Source: Candidatus Planktophila sp. (lineage in GTDB: Bacteria > Actinomycetota > Actinomycetes > Nanopelagicales > Nanopelagicaceae). From it: DNA of 64,000 nucleotides. The stretch covers positions 8,707-72,706 of the forward strand of contig JBDNJI010000028.1 of the NCBI GenBank assembly GCA_041687825.1, given 5' to 3'. The notes beneath the pieces are model-generated. The model saw only the letters and a program-made list of their open reading frames with translations, made no database searches and had not been told where the DNA came from. Positions within the stretch are counted from its first letter, which is position 1, and every line of letters begins with the position of its first letter. This document shows, in pieces, positions 48,469-54,575 of this stretch. Made by a program: the position numbers and the translations under genes.

Positions 48469-50136
48469 CTAGTGACCCTCGGTCTTAATGTGAGGATGGT
48501 GCAGGTCAAAAGCTGGACGCTCGGATCGAATACGAGGAATAGATAGGAAATTATGTCGCGGTGGTGGACACGATGTTGCCCATTCCAGGGAAGAGCCGTA
48601 ACCCCAAGGATCATCAACTTCAACCTTTGGACTCTTGCGAGTAATCCACACATTGATAAAGAATGGAATCATCGAGAGTGCGAGTAAAAAGGAACCTACT
48701 GTGGAGATCATATTCATTCCAGTAAATCCATCTGTTGCCAAGTAGTCAGCGTAGCGACGAGGAAAGCCTTTAATACCGAGCCAGTGCTGGATCAGAAATG
48801 TTGTATGGAAGCCAACAAAGAGTGTCCAGAAATGAATCTTGCCGAGACGTTCGTTGAGCATGCGCCCGGTCATCTTTGGCCACCAGAAATAGAAACCGGC
48901 AAACATCGCAAAGACCACGGTGCCAAAGAGAACATAGTGGAAGTGTGCGACGACGAAATATGACGCTGAGACGGCAAAGTCCAACGGTGGTGATGCCAAG
49001 ATAATTCCGGTTAAACCACCGAAGAGGAATGTCACTAAGAATCCCATGACCCAGAGCATTGGAGTCTCGAAGGTGACGTGGCCGCGCCACATCGTTCCAA
49101 TCCAGTTGAAGAATTTGACACCTGTCGGAACACCAATCAAAAATGTCATAAAGGAGAAAAACGGTAAGAGAACTTGACCGCTAGTGAACATATGGTGAGC
49201 CCAGACCGCTACGGATAGCGCAGCGATTGCGATCGTTGCCGCAATTAAGCCCTTGTATCCAAAGATGGGCTTGCGACTAAAGACCGGGAGAATTTCAGTG
49301 GCGATACCAAAAAATGGCAACGCCAAAATATAAACCTCGGGGTGACCAAAGAACCAGAAGAGATGCTGCCAGAGCATGGCTCCGCCGTTAGCCGGATCAA
49401 AGATATGCGATCCATACAGTCGATCAGACTCAAGGGCTAACAGCGCCGCAGCTAGCGGAGGAAAGGCAAGCAGTACCAAGATTGATGTTAGTAATACGTT
49501 CCAGGAAAAGATCGACATACGAAACATCGTCATACCAGGTGCGCGCATTGTAAAAATTGTGGTGATGAAGTTAACGCCACCAAGAATTGTTCCCAACCCA
49601 CTTATGGCAAGACCAACCACCCAAAGATCGCCTCCGATACCTGGCGAGTACGAGGCATTCGATAACGGTGCATATGCGGTCCACCCAAAGGACGCTGCTC
49701 CACCAGGTGCTAAAAATCCGCCAAAAACCATAATGCCGCCGAACAGGTACAACCAATACGAGAGCATGTTAAGTCTTGGGAAGGCAACATCTGCGGCGCC
49801 AATTTGCAGCGGCATCATGACATTAGCAAATCCAACAAAAAGAGGAGTTGCAAATAACAAAAGCATAATTGTTCCATGCATAGTAAAAATTTGGTTGTAC
49901 TGCTCATTCGAGATAAATTGCATTCCTGGCCGAGCAAGTTCTGTGCGAAGAATCAATGCAAGAACGCCAGCTATAAGAAACCAGGCAAAAGAGGTAATCA
50001 GGTAGAGATAGCCGATAGTTTTGTGGTCAGTTGAGGTAAACCACTTTACGAAATTTTTACCCCTAGCCGCTGGGGCCACGCCAGGCTGGACCCCAAGATC
50101 AGCGGTAATCATTGGACGATCTGCATATGTTGTCAT
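48469..50136 (-). CDS. ctaD: Cytochrome aa3 oxidase subunit I (type A1)
   Basis: TMHG, AFPRLN, GHPEVY, WAHH, PTGVK, VAHFHY, PRRY. Confidence 0.99.
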
Positions 50137-50891
50137 GCGGTACTCGCTCTCAGCGTTTCTAGATAACTTTGATAATCAGCCGGGCTTACAACCTTAAGTT
50201 TAAATCGCATCTGTGAGTGATTGCGGCCGCACAGGATGTTACAGAAGCCAGAGAATTCACCAATTTTATTTGCAGTAAATTCGAGCTGATTGGTTACTCC
50301 AGGCAAATTTTGCATCTGAATCATGAAAGCAGGAACCCAGAAACTGTGTACAACATCGCTTGCGGTGAGCGTATAACGCACCCGCTCTCCTAGTGGTACG
50401 ACCAACGTGGGTGGCTTGTCTGGCGATCCTGTGACGATAGCCTTTTCGCCAGCCTCTGGATATCCGAATTGCCAAGACCATTGAAAACCATTTACAGATA
50501 TTTCGTGCGCAACAACCGAAGACTTTTGGGTAATTTCGTCTTGCTTAATTGCTGTGAAATAAAATAGAACCGCGATGATAACAAAAGGTATTACTGTGTA
50601 AAAAACTTCTACTGGAATGTTGTACTGCGTCTGCTTCGGAAACTCACCCTTTGATGCTTTTGCACGATGAAAAACTGCCGGCCAAAGAATCAAAATAAGT
50701 GTAAAAACTCCGACAACCCCTGCTGCTATCCAGGCACCCTGCCATAATGAAAGTGAAATATCGTTAACGCTTGACGCACCCTCTGGGAAACCCAAAGTTG
50801 CAACGTTAGAACAACCAGTCAGGGTCAAGAATGCAGGAACTAATAACAGGCCAGATCGACGGTTCCAAGACTTCTTTGAAGACGCAAACAT
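50133..50891 (-). CDS. ctaC: Cytochrome aa3 oxidase subunit II (lipoprotein, CuA)
   Basis: Lipobox LTGC, QWSW, DVVHSFW, C-x3-C-x3-H-x2-M. Confidence 0.96.
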
Positions 50892-50949
50892 AGGTTAAGG
50901 ATAGTGGCGCGGAGAGAACTTCTCTCTCGGTGCTAGTAGCCTTCATCAG

Positions 50950-51996
50950 GTGGTTCGTGTCACAGGAAACTTCTCATCAGAGGCGCCTCTCTCCGAGGTG
51001 GTCACCTCCACGATTCTCGCCGCACTAGAGGCGGGTTGGGGAGATCCCAAGAAGATTTCTCAGGCCGCCACCAGGGCGAAAATTCTGGAAACCCAGGCCA
51101 GAGAATCGATCGCTGAGAAATTAAATATCAGGGTTGATGAGATCGAGGTTGTGGGCGAAAGCGAGTTACTTCCGTTCCTCTCGATCGCTGGATTCTTACA
51201 TCCGGATCGATCACTGGCAATAGGTGCAATTGATCGAGGCAAGATTCGCGCTCTGGCTCGCTGGCATCAGCCGAGTGCGATTATTCCGGTTTCTGCATCG
51301 GGACATATGGATCCGACAAAAATTGATCCAACATCACTGCTCAGCCTGCAAGTAGGCAATGGTGAAACTGGAATAGTGCAGGATCTGCCACGACTTTCGA
51401 AAATCGCCGAACTGGTTGTACTTGATGCAACTACATCAGGATCTCGGGTTGCTTTGGGTGATCGATGGGATGGTGCAATTTTTGATTCCCAATCTTGGAA
51501 TGGCCCCAGCGGAATCGGAATCATGGCAATTAGAAATAGTGCGCAGTGGACCTACCCACTTCCCCACATCGCACCGATTCGCACTCCTGGGAGTTATTCA
51601 CTGCCGCTGTTACTGGCATCATCGGTGGCACTTGAGAACTTCTTCGAGAATACATCACATCTTTCTTCGCTCAACGTCCACATTAGAAATCGAATTGCGC
51701 AAGAACTCCCTGGTGCGAAGGCGGTTGGCGATCAGAGTTCATCGCTGGCACATTTACTCACATTAGTAATACCTGATGTAGTAAACGAAATGATCGTTCG
51801 TGAATTGGAAGCGCTCGGAATATCTATTGATGCTGGATCAGCTTGTGCGCCAGGTGATTTGGCGCCAAGTCATGTGTTGGATGCGATGGGTATCGCTACG
51901 ACAGGTTCGCTTCGTTTAACACTGCGAAATGAACATACTCTCGCTGAAGTGGATCAGATGATAAACGCGATAGTTCAGACGGTCACGCAAGGATAA
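50950..51996 (+). CDS. IscS/NifS-fold protein lacking the PLP lysine
   Basis: NGETGIVQ, VLDA, GP-x-GIG, R-x-PG, AGSAC, SHVL-x-AMG, SLRL. SQSW stands where S-x-HK is expected. Confidence 0.8.
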   Translation: MVRVTGNFSSEAPLSEVVTSTILAALEAGWGDPKKISQAATRAKILETQARESIAEKLNIRVDEIEVVGESELLPFLSIAGFLHPDRSLAIGAIDRGKIRALARWHQPSAIIPVSASGHMDPTKIDPTSLLSLQVGNGETGIVQDLPRLSKIAELVVLDATTSGSRVALGDRWDGAIFDSQSWNGPSGIGIMAIRNSAQWTYPLPHIAPIRTPGSYSLPLLLASSVALENFFENTSHLSSLNVHIRNRIAQELPGAKAVGDQSSSLAHLLTLVIPDVVNEMIVRELEALGISIDAGSACAPGDLAPSHVLDAMGIATTGSLRLTLRNEHTLAEVDQMINAIVQTVTQG

Positions 51997-52005
51997 CTCT
52001 CTTCC

Positions 52006-52980
52006 TTAAACTAAATGCAGTGCAATCTCTGATCTAGCATCCGCACCATAGGCAAGTTCAAACCGATCTAGAAACTCGGTGGATGTGAATGAATATTCTT
52101 GAGTCCCCATCGTTTCGATCACATAGGTTGCTAGCAGTGATCCAATCTCGGCACACCGTTGGTGGTTTAAGCCCCATGCAAGACCGGCAACGAAGCCACT
52201 TCTAAATGAATCTCCGACTCCGGTCGGATCAACTTTCCCACGTTCTTGCGGACAACCAACAACAATCGTTTCGATACCTCGCCCTTCAACACGCGAGCCT
52301 TCTGAACCGAGCGTGACAATTCGATACTTCACTCGATCAAGAATCTCGTCATCGCTCCAACCAGTTTTTTGAATCGCTAACGCGAGTTCGTATTCATTGA
52401 GAAAAAGATAGGTCGCTCCATCAATAAGTGACTTAATCTGTTCGCCCTCTAGTCGAGCCAACTGTTGTGACGGATCTGCCAGAATTGGAATTCCTTTTGA
52501 TTTAGCGACTTCAGTATGGCGCAACATGGCATCGGGATCATCTGGCGAAACGATCAGTAGATCAAGAGTTCCCTCTTTATCTATGATCGGCTGTAATTCT
52601 ATGTTTCGTGCCTCCGACATTGCACCCGGGAAGAAAGATGCAAACTGATTAAGTTCGCTATCGGTGGTGACAGTAAAGAGTGAAGTGAATTGAGTGGTTG
52701 AGACGAGGGCGTGTGAAGTATCAACACCATGTCGGCTCAGCCATGCGTTGTAATCGGGCCAATCTTTTCCGACCGCAGCGATAAGTACTGGTTTATGTCC
52801 TAGAACTGCCAGACCAAAAGAGATGTTCGCCGCACATCCCCCGCGACGGACTTCAAGACCGTCGACTAAAAAGGAGAGCGAAATGTTTTCTAGTGAACCG
52901 GCAACAATGGAATCAGAGAACTTTCCAGAGAAAGTCATTATGTGGTCGCGCCCAACAGAGCCTGCTACACCAATTTTCAT
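52006..52980 (-). CDS. adoK: PfkB-family kinase, adenosine kinase-like
   Basis: ISLSFLV, RRGGCAANI, FFPGAM, ADPSQQ, NEYE, DPTGVGDSFR. Confidence 0.88.
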   Translation of the reverse strand: MKIGVAGSVGRDHIMTFSGKFSDSIVAGSLENISLSFLVDGLEVRRGGCAANISFGLAVLGHKPVLIAAVGKDWPDYNAWLSRHGVDTSHALVSTTQFTSLFTVTTDSELNQFASFFPGAMSEARNIELQPIIDKEGTLDLLIVSPDDPDAMLRHTEVAKSKGIPILADPSQQLARLEGEQIKSLIDGATYLFLNEYELALAIQKTGWSDDEILDRVKYRIVTLGSEGSRVEGRGIETIVVGCPQERGKVDPTGVGDSFRSGFVAGLAWGLNHQRCAEIGSLLATYVIETMGTQEYSFTSTEFLDRFELAYGADARSEIALHLV

Positions 52981-53011: not shown

Positions 53012-53368
53012 CTAGTTGAATGAATCACCGCAGGCACATGAACCCTGCGCATTTGGATTATCGATAGTGAAGCCTTGCTTCTCAATCGTGTCCACGAAGT
53101 CAATTGTTGCGCCCATAAGATACGGATCGCTGAGCTTTCCGGTAATGACTTTTACATCACCAAACATACGAACAACATCTCCTTCAAGTTCACGATTGTC
53201 GAAGAAGAGTTGGTACTTAAGACCGGAGCAACCACCTGGTTGTACTTCTACGCGAAGGTAAAGATCGTCGCTGCCCTCTTGGGCAAGAAGTGCTGCCACC
53301 TTTGCGGCGGCCTCATCTGAAAGTGCAATGCTCTTGGTTGTTGTTTCTGAAGTCTCTTGTGTCGTCAT
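53012..53368 (-). CDS. A-type Fe-S carrier (IscA/ErpA/HesB)
   Basis: PGGCSG and NPNAQGSCACGDSF. Confidence 0.96.
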   Translation of the reverse strand: MTTQETSETTTKSIALSDEAAAKVAALLAQEGSDDLYLRVEVQPGGCSGLKYQLFFDNRELEGDVVRMFGDVKVITGKLSDPYLMGATIDFVDTIEKQGFTIDNPNAQGSCACGDSFN

Positions 53369-53426
53369 GGTCCAAGACTACTCGCTTCACTTAGCGAATG
53401 CGACTTTTATGAGCAAGAATAGGGAC

Positions 53427-54575
53427 ATGTCATCTAAGAGCCTGACCAACCTGCTATTGCTGGGATCTGGGGCCGACCCGCTCTCAGAACGTGGCGTCAC
53501 GTGTGCAGGTGAGATTCCGGCAGCGAGTGACCCAGAGCTTCGCGAGCGAGCACGCAATGCACGGGCAAGTCTTGGTAGTCGGGCAATAATTCTCGGTCAT
53601 CACTATCAGCGTGATGAGGTAATCGAGTTTGCAGATATCACGGGCGATTCTTTTAAATTGGCACAAGCCGCCCAAGCCGAAAGTAGCGCGGAGTTCGTAA
53701 TCTTCTGTGGCGTTCACTTTATGGCAGAGAGTGCTGACATTCTTACCAGTGATTTTCAAAAAGTAATTCTGCCTGATCTTGCCGCTGGGTGTTCGATGGC
53801 TGATATGGCTACTGCCTCGCAGGTTGCTAATTGTTGGAATGATTTGAAATCACTGGGAATCACCGAGGCAACTATCCCAGTCACATATATGAATTCTTCG
53901 GCCGCAATTAAATCTTTTACCGGTGAAAATGGCGGAACCATCTGTACTTCTTCCAATGCGAAGGCAGCGATGGAGTGGGCCTTTACGCAAGGCGAGAAAA
54001 TTCTTTTTCTTCCTGATCAACACCTCGGGCGAAATACTGCAGTCACCCAACTCGGACTTTCACTTAGTGATTGCGTTTTATGGAATCCGTGGAAGCCGAT
54101 GGGCGGATTAACCGCCGCAGAAATTTTGGCAGCTAAGGTGATTTTGTGGCGGGGACATTGTTCGGTTCATGGTCGCTTCACGAAAGAGTCAATCGATGAA
54201 CTTCGTGAACGCGTCGAGGGCATACAAATTCTGGTTCACCCAGAATGCACCCATGAAGTCGCGACCAACGCTGACTTTGTCGGAAGTACTGAATTTATTA
54301 TCCAAACAATTGAGGCAGCCCCTGCTGGAAGTAAATGGGCGATCGGCACCGAATTTAATCTCGTCTCTCGACTTGCCAAGACTCACCCAGATAAAGAAAT
54401 CGTCTACCTAGATAAGACTCTTTGTTACTGCTCAACCATGAATCGGATTGATCTCCCCCACCTTGTCTGGGTGATGGAATCCCTCGTGGCCGGCCACGTT
54501 GTAAACCAAATTAAGGTAGCGCCAGCGATTTCTCATTACTCCCAACTGGCATTGCAGCGGATGCTAGATCTATAG
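53427..54575 (+). CDS. nadA: Quinolinate synthase
   Basis: LGHHYQ, GDS, FCGVHFMAE, AGCSMA, YMNS, CTSSN, HPEC, GSTE, CSTM. Start set at ATG 53427. Confidence 0.97.
   Translation: MSSKSLTNLLLLGSGADPLSERGVTCAGEIPAASDPELRERARNARASLGSRAIILGHHYQRDEVIEFADITGDSFKLAQAAQAESSAEFVIFCGVHFMAESADILTSDFQKVILPDLAAGCSMADMATASQVANCWNDLKSLGITEATIPVTYMNSSAAIKSFTGENGGTICTSSNAKAAMEWAFTQGEKILFLPDQHLGRNTAVTQLGLSLSDCVLWNPWKPMGGLTAAEILAAKVILWRGHCSVHGRFTKESIDELRERVEGIQILVHPECTHEVATNADFVGSTEFIIQTIEAAPAGSKWAIGTEFNLVSRLAKTHPDKEIVYLDKTLCYCSTMNRIDLPHLVWVMESLVAGHVVNQIKVAPAISHYSQLALQRMLDL

What the first reader, a model, noticed from the sequence alone, without database searches (positions are those of the whole stretch)
50950..51996. 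Cysteine-desulfurase fold without PLP chemistry but with the persulfide cysteine
Seen: the S-x-H-K motif reads D-S-Q-S (Ser182, codon 51493-51495, in place of the Schiff-base Lys). The PLP-stacking E-H reads D95-R96, D-A-x-Q reads DATT, and the N-terminal YLD-x-AATT motif is eroded. Yet AGSAC (Cys299), SHVL-x-AMG and the C-terminal Arg of SLRL are kept, and the ORF is intact with a -10 box. Established: IscS/NifS enzymes need that Lys. Inference: a pseudo-enzyme that may act as a persulfide or metal relay or as a scaffold. Its neighbours are the Cu-dependent oxidase, an A-type Fe-S carrier and the Fe-S enzyme NadA, so this could be an undescribed sulfur- or metal-handling branch.
Basis: partly seen in the sequence, partly recalled or inferred. 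Interest (0 to 1): 0.7.

Follow-up and report, generated by a model that had tools for sequence, protein, structure and literature searches.

The report
Lysine-less cysteine desulfurase look-alike beside ctaC
A freshwater actinobacterium keeps, under purifying selection, a copy of the sulfur-mobilising enzyme NifS/IscS that has lost the lysine and other residues holding its vitamin-B6 cofactor but keeps its mobile sulfur-carrying cysteine, so it most likely acts as a non-catalytic sulfur or iron-sulfur handling partner.

Summary
ORF 50950-51996 (+) encodes a 348-aa type I (NifS/IscS-fold) protein. Ser182 stands at the Schiff-base Lys, and Arg96 at the PLP-stacking His. Glu70 and Asp179 stand at phosphate-binding positions. 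Cys299 in the mobile loop, PSHVL and Arg322 are kept.

It is not a one-off. It belongs to an Actinomycetes-wide family with no curated model, almost always divergent from ctaC and usually followed by a TusA sulfur carrier. Most sampled genomes keep SxHK. The Lys was lost repeatedly, at least 6 times by parsimony, while Cys stayed nearly invariant. In 121 cluster representatives 59-99% identical to the window's protein (nearly all 59-65%), Lys is never present and Cys299, Arg96, Lys98, Asp159 and Arg322 are invariant.

The gene evolves about 3-8 times faster than its neighbours but is still constrained (omega about 0.1). It survives in 1.4-Mb streamlined genomes that also hold SufS-SufU and IscS-MnmA. 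This genus has no TusA.

Best reading: a PLP-dead relay or adaptor that works through its Cys loop. The closest precedents are the archaeal Lys-less IscS of A. fulgidus and M. acetivorans IscS1. The partner and pathway are unknown. This scan found the same family earlier on other genomes.

The parts
50950..51996 (+). Lys-less NifS/IscS-like ORF (P0001, 348 aa, GTG start)
   Evidence: AF2 pLDDT 94.7; Foldseek TM 0.86-0.89 to NFS1, NifS, IscS and AfIscS
51493..51495 (+). Ser182 codon at the Schiff-base Lys column
   Evidence: alignment; this column is A, S or T in 121/121 close homologues
51235..51243 (+). Arg96-Gly97-Lys98. Arg96 replaces the PLP-stacking His. All three are invariant in the acI-type lineage, together with Asp95
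   Evidence: Lys98 is lineage-specific and not conserved in the wider Lys-less family
51157..51159 (+). Glu70 at the phosphate-binding S-G-T loop position (S in 98% of Lys-bearing relatives)
51424..51426 (+). Asp159, the counterpart of the pyridine-N-binding Asp, still invariant
51844..51846 (+). Cys299 in the G-S-A-C mobile loop (the persulfide cysteine of active relatives)
   Evidence: invariant; 110/112; pLDDT dips to 70-79 over residues 291-310
51913..51915 (+). Arg322, the counterpart of the substrate-carboxylate Arg
50937..50942 (+). TANNNT -10-like hexamer 7 nt upstream of the GTG, suggesting a leaderless mRNA
   Evidence: conserved in six genomes of the genus; not picked by the sigma-70 scan
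50133..50891 (-). ctaC (aa3 oxidase subunit II), divergent, 58-bp spacer
   Evidence: adjacency conserved in 54/60 sampled Actinomycetes loci
52006..52980 (-). pfkB-family kinase, convergent, 9-bp gap. It occupies the place where most relatives first carry tusA
53012..53368 (-). erpA-type A-type Fe-S carrier, part of the conserved block
53328..54575 (+). nadA (quinolinate synthase, a [4Fe-4S] enzyme), part of the conserved block

Best explanation
P0001 is a catalytically dead descendant of an Actinomycetes-specific type I (NifS/IscS-like) cysteine desulfurase. In most relatives that enzyme is encoded divergently from ctaC and is translationally coupled to a TusA-type sulfur carrier.

Shown: the PLP site is dismantled. 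Lys became Ser, the stacking His became Arg, and the phosphate-binding Ser/Thr positions became Asp179 and Glu70. The fold, the full-length mobile Cys loop (G-S-A-C299), the following PSHVL helix, Arg322, Asn137 and Asp159 are under strong constraint. The gene is retained in streamlined 1.4-Mb genomes that already have SufS-SufU and IscS-MnmA.

Inferred: it cannot make persulfide from free cysteine. What selection preserves is a function of the Cys loop. That function is either taking up and handing on sulfane sulfur made by SufS or IscS, or supplying a cysteine ligand or docking platform for a nascent Fe-S cluster, as proposed for A. fulgidus IscS. In other words it is an adaptor or relay rather than an enzyme.

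The recurrent loss of the Lys across the family suggests that the ancestral protein already had a role that does not depend on its own catalysis. Acceptor and pathway are unknown. In this genus the usual partner TusA is absent.
For: Motif substitutions. Fold.

Family and synteny: ctaC is divergent in 54/60 class-level loci, and tusA lies directly downstream on the same strand in 49/60. Metagenomic relatives at 27-45% identity have the same layout, with tusA overlapping the stop codon.

Lys and Cys: 10/60 sampled genomes are Lys-less and all of them keep Cys. Among named genomes 71/79 are Lys-less, 79/79 keep Cys, and 66 of the 71 still have tusA adjacent. The TusA proteins encoded beside Lys-less genes keep the C-P-x-P cysteine. 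Among 50%-identity representatives, 95/112 lack Lys, 110/112 keep Cys and 108/112 keep Arg322.

Tree: at least 6 Lys-state changes by parsimony. Lys-less tips are longer, 2.46 versus 1.58 substitutions per site.

The acI-type lineage: 121/121 lack Lys, with 84 invariant columns that include Cys299, Arg96, Lys98, Glu70, Asp159 and Arg322.

Selection: omega is 0.11 for the only close pair with usable dS.

Housekeeping desulfurases are present: SufS (TIGR01979, 565 bits) with SufU, and a Lys-bearing IscS-like gene upstream of mnmA. Five complete genomes of the genus keep the gene.

Precedent: Lys-less A. fulgidus IscS is inactive and provides a Cys ligand to the [2Fe-2S] cluster on IscU (PMC8918507, PMC7585200).
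Against: No biochemical data exist for any member. No partner has been identified in this genus, and TusA was not found in 5/5 complete genomes.

Asn137, Asp159 and Arg322 bind PLP or the substrate in active enzymes, yet they are still invariant. That could mean a ligand still occupies the pocket.

The gene is the fastest-evolving in its block: mean amino-acid identity is 0.51 against 0.71-0.92 for the six neighbouring genes compared. So much of the protein is under relaxed constraint.

The backbone of the tree is weakly supported, so the number of independent Lys losses is uncertain.
Confidence: 0.5

Rival explanations
1. It still holds a B6 vitamer (PLP or PMP) or another ligand non-covalently in the old pocket, as A. 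fulgidus IscS holds PMP. It then carries out residual or altered chemistry, or senses cysteine or B6.
For: Asp159, Asn137 and Arg322 are 98-100% conserved in all Lys-less groups. AfIscS, which has Asp in place of Lys, crystallised with PMP (PMC8918507).
Against: In this lineage the stacking His is Arg, the S-G-T phosphate loop reads E-S-E, and the Ser and His of S-x-H-K read Asp and Gln. The acidic residues at phosphate-binding positions should disfavour a phosphate group; this is an inference. AfIscS, by contrast, keeps E-H and the rest of the site.
Confidence: 0.15
2. The catalytic Lys has migrated. The lineage-invariant Lys98, two residues after the former His position, forms the Schiff base, so the protein is still a desulfurase.
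For: Lys98 is invariant in 121/121 close homologues within an invariant D-R-G-K motif.
Against: Lys98 is absent from most other Lys-less family members, which nevertheless keep Cys. The phosphate and ring contacts are lost. From recalled geometry of fold-type I enzymes, and not measured here, the +2/+3 positions lie near the ring-nitrogen Asp rather than C4'. That would suggest a salt bridge to Asp159 that compensates for the missing cofactor.
Confidence: 0.07
3. Its role concerns the aa3 oxidase: assembly of CtaC or its CuA site, thiol or copper handling, or protection of the oxidase from sulfide. This would explain the near-universal divergent pairing with ctaC.
For: ctaC is adjacent in 54/60 class-level loci and in nearly all named loci. 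The spacer is 50-61 bp with back-to-back -10-like elements in this genus.
Against: The protein is cytoplasmic by family, whereas CuA is assembled outside the membrane. That is established knowledge and was not tested here. In one family the NifS-like-TusA-pfkB unit persists without ctaC nearby (L081 and L092). The whole ctaDC...pfkB-erpA-nadA block is an old conserved gene order.
Confidence: 0.1
4. It is a decaying relic with no function, not yet deleted.
For: It has the highest dN in its block and long branches after Lys loss.
Against: The frame is intact in all genomes examined. Omega is about 0.1. There are 84 invariant columns among 121 representatives at about 60% identity. Cys is invariant over branch lengths above 2 substitutions per site. 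The gene is retained in highly streamlined genomes.
Confidence: 0.04

Closest known systems
Archaeoglobus fulgidus IscS (IscS2; PDB 4EB5, 4EB7, 4HVK; D199K mutant 4R5F) and Methanosarcina acetivorans IscS1
   Same: Type I desulfurase fold. The Schiff-base Lys is naturally replaced and the loop Cys is kept. AfIscS is experimentally inactive and is proposed to act as a scaffold or Cys ligand rather than a sulfur source. It is the best sequence match in the PDB (E 3e-14), and the fold match has TM 0.86-0.89. Literature: PMC8918507, PMC7585200.
   Different: The archaeal proteins keep the stacking His and the other PLP contacts, bind PMP, and are paired with IscU. P0001 has lost most PLP contacts and has no iscU neighbour; the only U-type protein in the genome is SufU, next to sufS. 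It belongs to a separate bacterial family whose Lys loss is independent.
   Same: Same position between ctaC and pfkB-erpA-nadA. Same family motifs (G-W-x-D-P, Q-x-x-N-x-E-x-G, W-G-G-P-x-G, G-S-x-C, P-S-H-V-L, G-N-x-R). These are the best non-self genomic matches to P0001 (E 1e-30 to 1e-38, against 7e-16 for the genome's own IscS).
   Different: They keep E-H, D-A-A-Q and S-A-H-K, so they are presumably active desulfurases. They usually have TusA. They evolve more slowly. No curated NCBIfam model covers either form.
E. coli IscS-TusA sulfur relay (PDB 3LVJ)
   Same: A type I desulfurase fold with a long mobile Cys loop, partnered with a TusA C-P-x-P carrier. This is the gene pairing seen in most family members, including Lys-less ones.
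   Different: IscS makes the persulfide itself, which Lys-less members cannot. The window's genus lacks TusA altogether.
NifS-type desulfurases tied to NadA maturation (C. glutamicum NadS in ndnR-nadA-nadC-nadS)
   Same: A NifS-like gene encoded near nadA, whose product needs a [4Fe-4S] cluster (PMC11995493). nadA lies 1.3 kb from P0001 and within 5 kb in many relatives.
   Different: NadS is described as an active desulfurase in one operon with nadA. Here the genes are on different strands, separated by pfkB and erpA, and orthology to NadS was not tested.

Membership tests
Type I cysteine desulfurase (NifS/IscS, EC 2.8.1.7) | Fold-type I / class V aminotransferase fold | tested here: met
   PF00266 at 40.5 bits, above the 21.5 cutoff. 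AF2 pLDDT 94.7. Foldseek TM 0.86-0.89 to NFS1, NifS and IscS.
Type I cysteine desulfurase (NifS/IscS, EC 2.8.1.7) | Schiff-base Lys in S-x-H-K | tested here: not met
   Ser182 stands at that column. The column is A, S or T in 121/121 close homologues.
Type I cysteine desulfurase (NifS/IscS, EC 2.8.1.7) | Remaining PLP contacts: stacking His, the phosphate-binding S-G-T loop, Ser and His of S-x-H-K, and Gln of D-A-x-Q | tested here: not met
   These positions read Arg96, Glu70-Ser71-Glu72, Asp179, Gln181 and Thr162. Only Asp159 and Asn137 are kept.
Type I cysteine desulfurase (NifS/IscS, EC 2.8.1.7) | Catalytic Cys on a long mobile loop, and the substrate Arg | tested here: met
   G-S-A-C299 with a loop length typical of type I. 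Arg322 is present.
Type I cysteine desulfurase (NifS/IscS, EC 2.8.1.7) | Score above a curated NCBIfam cutoff (NifS, IscS, DndA, CsdA or SufS) | tested here: not met
   The best is TIGR03402 at 91 bits, against a cutoff of 530.75.
Type I cysteine desulfurase (NifS/IscS, EC 2.8.1.7) | PLP binding and cysteine desulfuration activity | not testable with these tools
   Needs purified protein.
Archaeal Lys-less IscS paralogues (AfIscS, MaIscS1) | Lys replaced, loop Cys kept | tested here: met
   4eb5 reads S-S-N-D where P0001 reads D-S-Q-S, and both keep G-S-A-C.
Archaeal Lys-less IscS paralogues (AfIscS, MaIscS1) | The rest of the B6 site is kept (PMP bound) and the protein is paired with IscU | tested here: not met
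   AfIscS keeps E-H whereas P0001 does not. There is no iscU beside P0001, and the only U-type scaffold is SufU next to sufS.
Actinomycetes ctaC-linked NifS-like/TusA family (no curated model; defined here and in earlier reports of this scan) | Closest relatives are the ctaC-adjacent genes, not the genome's own IscS | tested here: met
   E 1e-30 to 1e-38 to ctaC-adjacent genes of other families, against 6.6e-16 to the own IscS. Groups with them in the tree.
Actinomycetes ctaC-linked NifS-like/TusA family (no curated model; defined here and in earlier reports of this scan) | Position: divergent from ctaC, upstream of pfkB-erpA-nadA | tested here: met
Actinomycetes ctaC-linked NifS-like/TusA family (no curated model; defined here and in earlier reports of this scan) | tusA immediately downstream | tested here: not met
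   There is a 9-bp gap to the convergent pfkB. PF01206 was not found in G000 (73.5% complete) or in 5 complete genomes of the genus.

The most novel reading that the evidence does not exclude
The ctaC-linked NifS-like/TusA module of Actinomycetes is at heart a sulfur-relay or Fe-S adaptor whose essential function never needed its own desulfurase chemistry. That would explain why the PLP lysine has been discarded at least half a dozen times independently while the Cys loop stays invariant. The acI version, with no TusA and a rebuilt pocket carrying an invariant D-R-G-K motif and Glu70, would be the end point: a PLP-free persulfide or cluster-ligand protein serving a still unknown acceptor, possibly tied to respiration or NadA maturation.
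Probability: 0.3. Interest if true: 0.75.

Novelty: new variant of a known kind. Interest (0 to 1): 0.6.

Why it matters
Databases name these proteins 'cysteine desulfurase' (JGI names), although a large share cannot be one. If it is a relay, it would be a bacterial, widely distributed counterpart of the single archaeal example (AfIscS). It would also be a natural experiment, with many independent losses of the catalytic Lys, on what a desulfurase scaffold does besides catalysis.

It touches open questions in actinobacterial sulfur trafficking: who serves TusA, how Fe-S enzymes such as NadA are matured beside the SUF system, and why the gene is locked to the oxidase operon. Cultured Lys-less carriers (Terrabacter, Pedococcus, Janibacter, Isoptericola, Promicromonospora) and Lys-bearing relatives (Nocardioides) make the question testable at the bench.

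Tried and rejected
(1) Complex prediction of P0001 with the genome's SufU: no verdict (score 0.00, controls not run). This counts neither for nor against binding.

(2) The search for related loci with family alignments A1, A2 and A3 failed because no stretch was conserved enough. A single Lys-less protein (L088) was used instead.

(4) The AF2 coordinates are not exposed, so the distance from Lys98 to the old C4' site and the filling of the pocket could not be measured.

(5) Literature searches for a description of the actinobacterial family found nothing in the held library. The terms included ctaC with desulfurase and TusA, SCO2157, pseudoenzyme, and inactive desulfurase (one search was a malformed query).

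(6) The palindrome in the ctaC spacer was considered as an operator and rejected as a conserved element, because it is absent from five sister genomes.

(7) The relic or pseudogene reading was rejected on the conservation and omega results.

(8) The first MAFFT run timed out and was repeated with faster settings.

Full report
**What is there**

The window is a contig of a streamlined freshwater actinobacterium: G000, 0.92 Mb, 73.5% complete, about 48% G+C. The only organism names attached to relatives, which are about 60% identical, are Candidatus Planktophila sp. and an unclassified Actinomycetota MAG. Another report on this same window also placed it in the Candidatus Planktophila group.

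ORF 50950-51996 (+) starts with GTG and encodes a 348-aa protein, P0001. It matches Pfam Aminotran_5 only weakly (40.5 bits). It matches NCBIfam NifS, DndA and IscS models far below their cutoffs: NifS scores 91 bits against 530.75.

Its neighbours are as follows:
- ctaF, ctaD and ctaC on the minus strand, with ctaC divergent across a 58-bp spacer.
- A convergent pfkB-family kinase.
- An ErpA-type A-type carrier.
- nadA.
- A DUF3043 gene.

**Checking the observation**

I aligned P0001 with HMMER to solved desulfurases.
- S-x-H-K reads D179-S-Q-S182.
- E-H reads D95-R96.
- D-A-x-Q reads D159-A-T-T.
- The N-terminal YLD-x-AATT motif is gone.
- G-S-A-C299, P-S-H-V-L-x-A-M-G and Arg322 are kept.

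The best PDB sequence match is A. fulgidus IscS, itself a natural Lys-less protein. 4EB5 has Asp at that column, and 4R5F is the D199K mutant.

AlphaFold2 with a 93-sequence alignment gives pLDDT 94.7 and pTM 0.92. Confidence is lower only at the N-terminus and over residues 291-310, which is the Cys loop. Foldseek finds NFS1, NifS, IscS and AfIscS at TM 0.86-0.89.

**Canonical enzymes elsewhere in the genome**

The genome has SufS (TIGR01979, 565 bits, above cutoff) directly followed by SufU. It also has an IscS-like gene with S-G-H-K and the Cys, directly upstream of mnmA. Five complete genomes of the same genus (1.4-1.5 Mb) each have the same three genes.

**The family**

Word-indexed and exhaustive HMMER searches find thousands of relatives.

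Among 112 full-length representatives of 50%-identity clusters:
- 95 lack Lys at the Schiff-base column. The replacements are S, A, D, T, N, L, G, M, Q or E.
- 110 keep the Cys.
- 108 keep Arg322.
- P-S-H-V-L is almost invariant.
- In the 93 Lys-less ones, only Glu139 and Cys299 are invariant. No Lys column is conserved.

Within 121 cluster representatives 59-99% identical to P0001 (nearly all 59-65%), the Lys column is always A, S or T. There are 84 invariant columns. They include Cys299, His308, Arg322, Asp159, Asn137, Trp183, Glu70 and a D95-R96-G97-K98 motif.

**Synteny**

Metagenomic relatives at 27-45% identity sit in the same place, divergent from ctaC. Two of them have a 70-aa TusA gene overlapping the stop codon.

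A profile search of 141 genomes of the class separates family members (at least 299 bits) cleanly from canonical IscS (at most about 280 bits). It finds the family in about 80 genomes.

For 60 of these I fetched 10 kb and located the neighbours with tblastn. The order is:

ctaD< ctaC< >NifS-like >tusA <pfkB <erpA >nadA

- ctaC is adjacent in 54/60.
- tusA is directly downstream on the same strand in 49/60.
- One of the 60 loci (L058, G333) comes from an unpublished genome. No conclusion depends on it.

The window's genus lacks tusA at this position. A Pfam TusA search finds none in G000 or in five complete genomes.

**Who has the Lys**

In that evenly drawn sample, 50/60 keep E-H, D-A-A-Q and S-A-H-K, and so are presumably active. 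The other 10/60 are Lys-less. These are the window's genus plus eight other genomes; seven of the eight still have tusA with its C-P-x-P cysteine.

A scan of named genomes with one Lys-less protein returned 79 loci.
- Lys-less: Pedococcus, Phycicoccus, Knoellia, Intrasporangium, Terrabacter, Janibacter, Nostocoides, Candidatus Phosphoribacter, Isoptericola, Promicromonospora, Actinotalea and others. That is 71/79, and 66 of the 71 have tusA.
- Lys-bearing (S-A-H-K): most Nocardioides and a Nonomuraea.
- Two exceptions among the Nocardioides relatives: Nocardioides sp. AX2bis reads S-S-H-H and a Nocardioidaceae MAG reads S-A-R-T.
- Cys is present in 79/79.

A FastTree phylogeny of 165 sequences, rooted on canonical IscS, needs at least 6 Lys-state changes with Lys at the root. 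Several Lys-less tips are nested in well-supported Lys-bearing clades. The deep backbone is weakly supported. Lys-less tips are longer, at 2.46 versus 1.58 substitutions per site. P0001 lies in a 49-tip clade that is entirely Lys-less.

Column statistics show stepwise erosion after Lys loss. The S-G-T phosphate loop, the His, and the Ser and His of S-x-H-K decay. In contrast G-W-x-D-P, Q134, N137, E139, D159, W-G-G-P-x-G, the Cys loop, P-S-H-V-L and Arg322 stay.

**Selection**

Among six genomes of the genus, the gene is the fastest-evolving of its block. Mean amino-acid identity is 0.51, against 0.71-0.92 for the six neighbouring genes compared. Mean dN is 0.50, against 0.06-0.26.

Where dS is usable (G336 versus G362), omega is 0.11, against 0.00-0.10 for the neighbours in the same pair. 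dS is near saturation in most pairs, so this rests on few comparisons. The conservation pattern over long branches is the stronger argument for constraint.

A TANNNT hexamer 7 nt upstream of the GTG is conserved in all six genomes. This fits a leaderless transcript. The generic sigma-70 scan found nothing there.

**Interpretation**

Shown:
- The protein has the type I desulfurase fold.
- It lacks the Lys and most PLP contacts.
- It keeps the mobile Cys loop.
- It is conserved and intact.
- It derives from a family whose other members look active and are paired with TusA.

Inferred:
- It cannot generate persulfide from cysteine. The need for the Lys is established knowledge (reviewed in PMC8918507).
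- Its retained function therefore runs through Cys299, either as a relay of sulfane sulfur made by SufS or IscS, or as a Cys ligand or platform for cluster assembly. The latter has been proposed for AfIscS and suggested for M. acetivorans IscS1 (PMC8918507, PMC7585200).

The persistent conservation of Asp159, Asn137 and Arg322 leaves room for a non-covalently bound ligand. The acidic residues at phosphate-binding positions argue against PLP or PMP in this lineage.

Lys98 is invariant only in the acI-type lineage. From recalled fold-type I geometry it is more likely a salt-bridge partner of Asp159 than a new Schiff-base Lys. I could not measure this, because model coordinates are not exposed.

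The tie to ctaC is striking but may simply be an ancient gene order. The unit NifS-like-tusA-pfkB persists where ctaC is not nearby (L081 and L092). A link to NadA and ErpA (compare NadS of C. glutamicum, PMC11995493) is plausible but untested.

**Novelty**

No paper in the held library describes this actinobacterial family. No NCBIfam model covers it, not even its Lys-bearing members. Source annotations call the Lys-less proteins 'cysteine desulfurase'.

The kind of thing, a Lys-less IscS paralogue, is known from archaea. I therefore rate it a new variant of a known kind.

This scan had already reported the same family on other genomes: e1-2170329, e1-3553753, e1-3860167 and e1-4768110. My results were obtained independently before reading those notes, and they agree.

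What this window adds:
- The TusA-free, most eroded end-state, in a streamlined genome.
- The lineage-invariant D-R-G-K and Glu70 residues.
- The rate and omega figures.
- A list of cultured Lys-less carriers for bench work.

Noticed in passing
L041:3184-3396 and L042:3659-3874; also 49 of 60 loci L046-L105: A 70-aa TusA-type C-P-x-P sulfur carrier gene overlaps or directly follows the NifS-like gene in most relatives, including Lys-less ones. It is missing from the window (9-bp gap to pfkB) and was not found anywhere in five complete genomes of the genus.
   Followed up: yes
window 50911-50927: A near-perfect palindrome, GAGAGAA-c-TTCTCTC, lies in the 58-bp ctaC/NifS-like spacer. It is not conserved in five sister genomes, so it is probably not a shared operator.
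   Followed up: partly
window 50895-50910: The element TAAGGATAGTGGCG next to the ctaC start is conserved in all six genomes of the genus. Read on the minus strand it contains TATCCT, a TANNNT -10-like hexamer for ctaC. The spacer may therefore hold two back-to-back promoters for leaderless or short-leader mRNAs.
   Followed up: partly
window 53328-53368: The longest ORFs of erpA (-) and nadA (+) overlap by 41 bp at their 5' ends. The family matches begin at residue 8-14 of ErpA and 63-84 of NadA, so one or both real starts are probably further in.
   Followed up: no
L186 (Nocardioides sp. AX2bis) and L180 (Nocardioidaceae MAG): Among Nocardioides-type relatives that otherwise keep S-A-H-K, these two read S-S-H-H and S-A-R-T at the Lys motif, with His, Cys, ctaC and tusA intact. 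They look like recent independent Lys losses and could serve as matched pairs for experiments.
   Followed up: partly
L161 (MAG labelled Proteobacteria bacterium) and L183 (MAG labelled Polyangia bacterium): These contigs carry the actinobacterial-type Lys-less gene, with tusA beside it in both and ctaC detected in L161. They are probably mis-binned actinobacterial contigs.
   Followed up: no
L095 and L097 (family f77, genomes of 1.4-1.7 Mb): Another small-genome lineage keeps the Lys (S-A-H-K) but, like the window's genus, has no tusA at the locus. Loss of tusA and loss of Lys are therefore not strictly linked.
   Followed up: no
L002 (G000 contig C11): The genome's Lys-bearing IscS-like gene lies directly upstream of mnmA, and an electron-transfer flavoprotein alpha subunit gene lies upstream of it. 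The iscS-mnmA pairing matches what I recall from other actinobacteria such as M. tuberculosis; that comparison was not checked here.
   Followed up: partly
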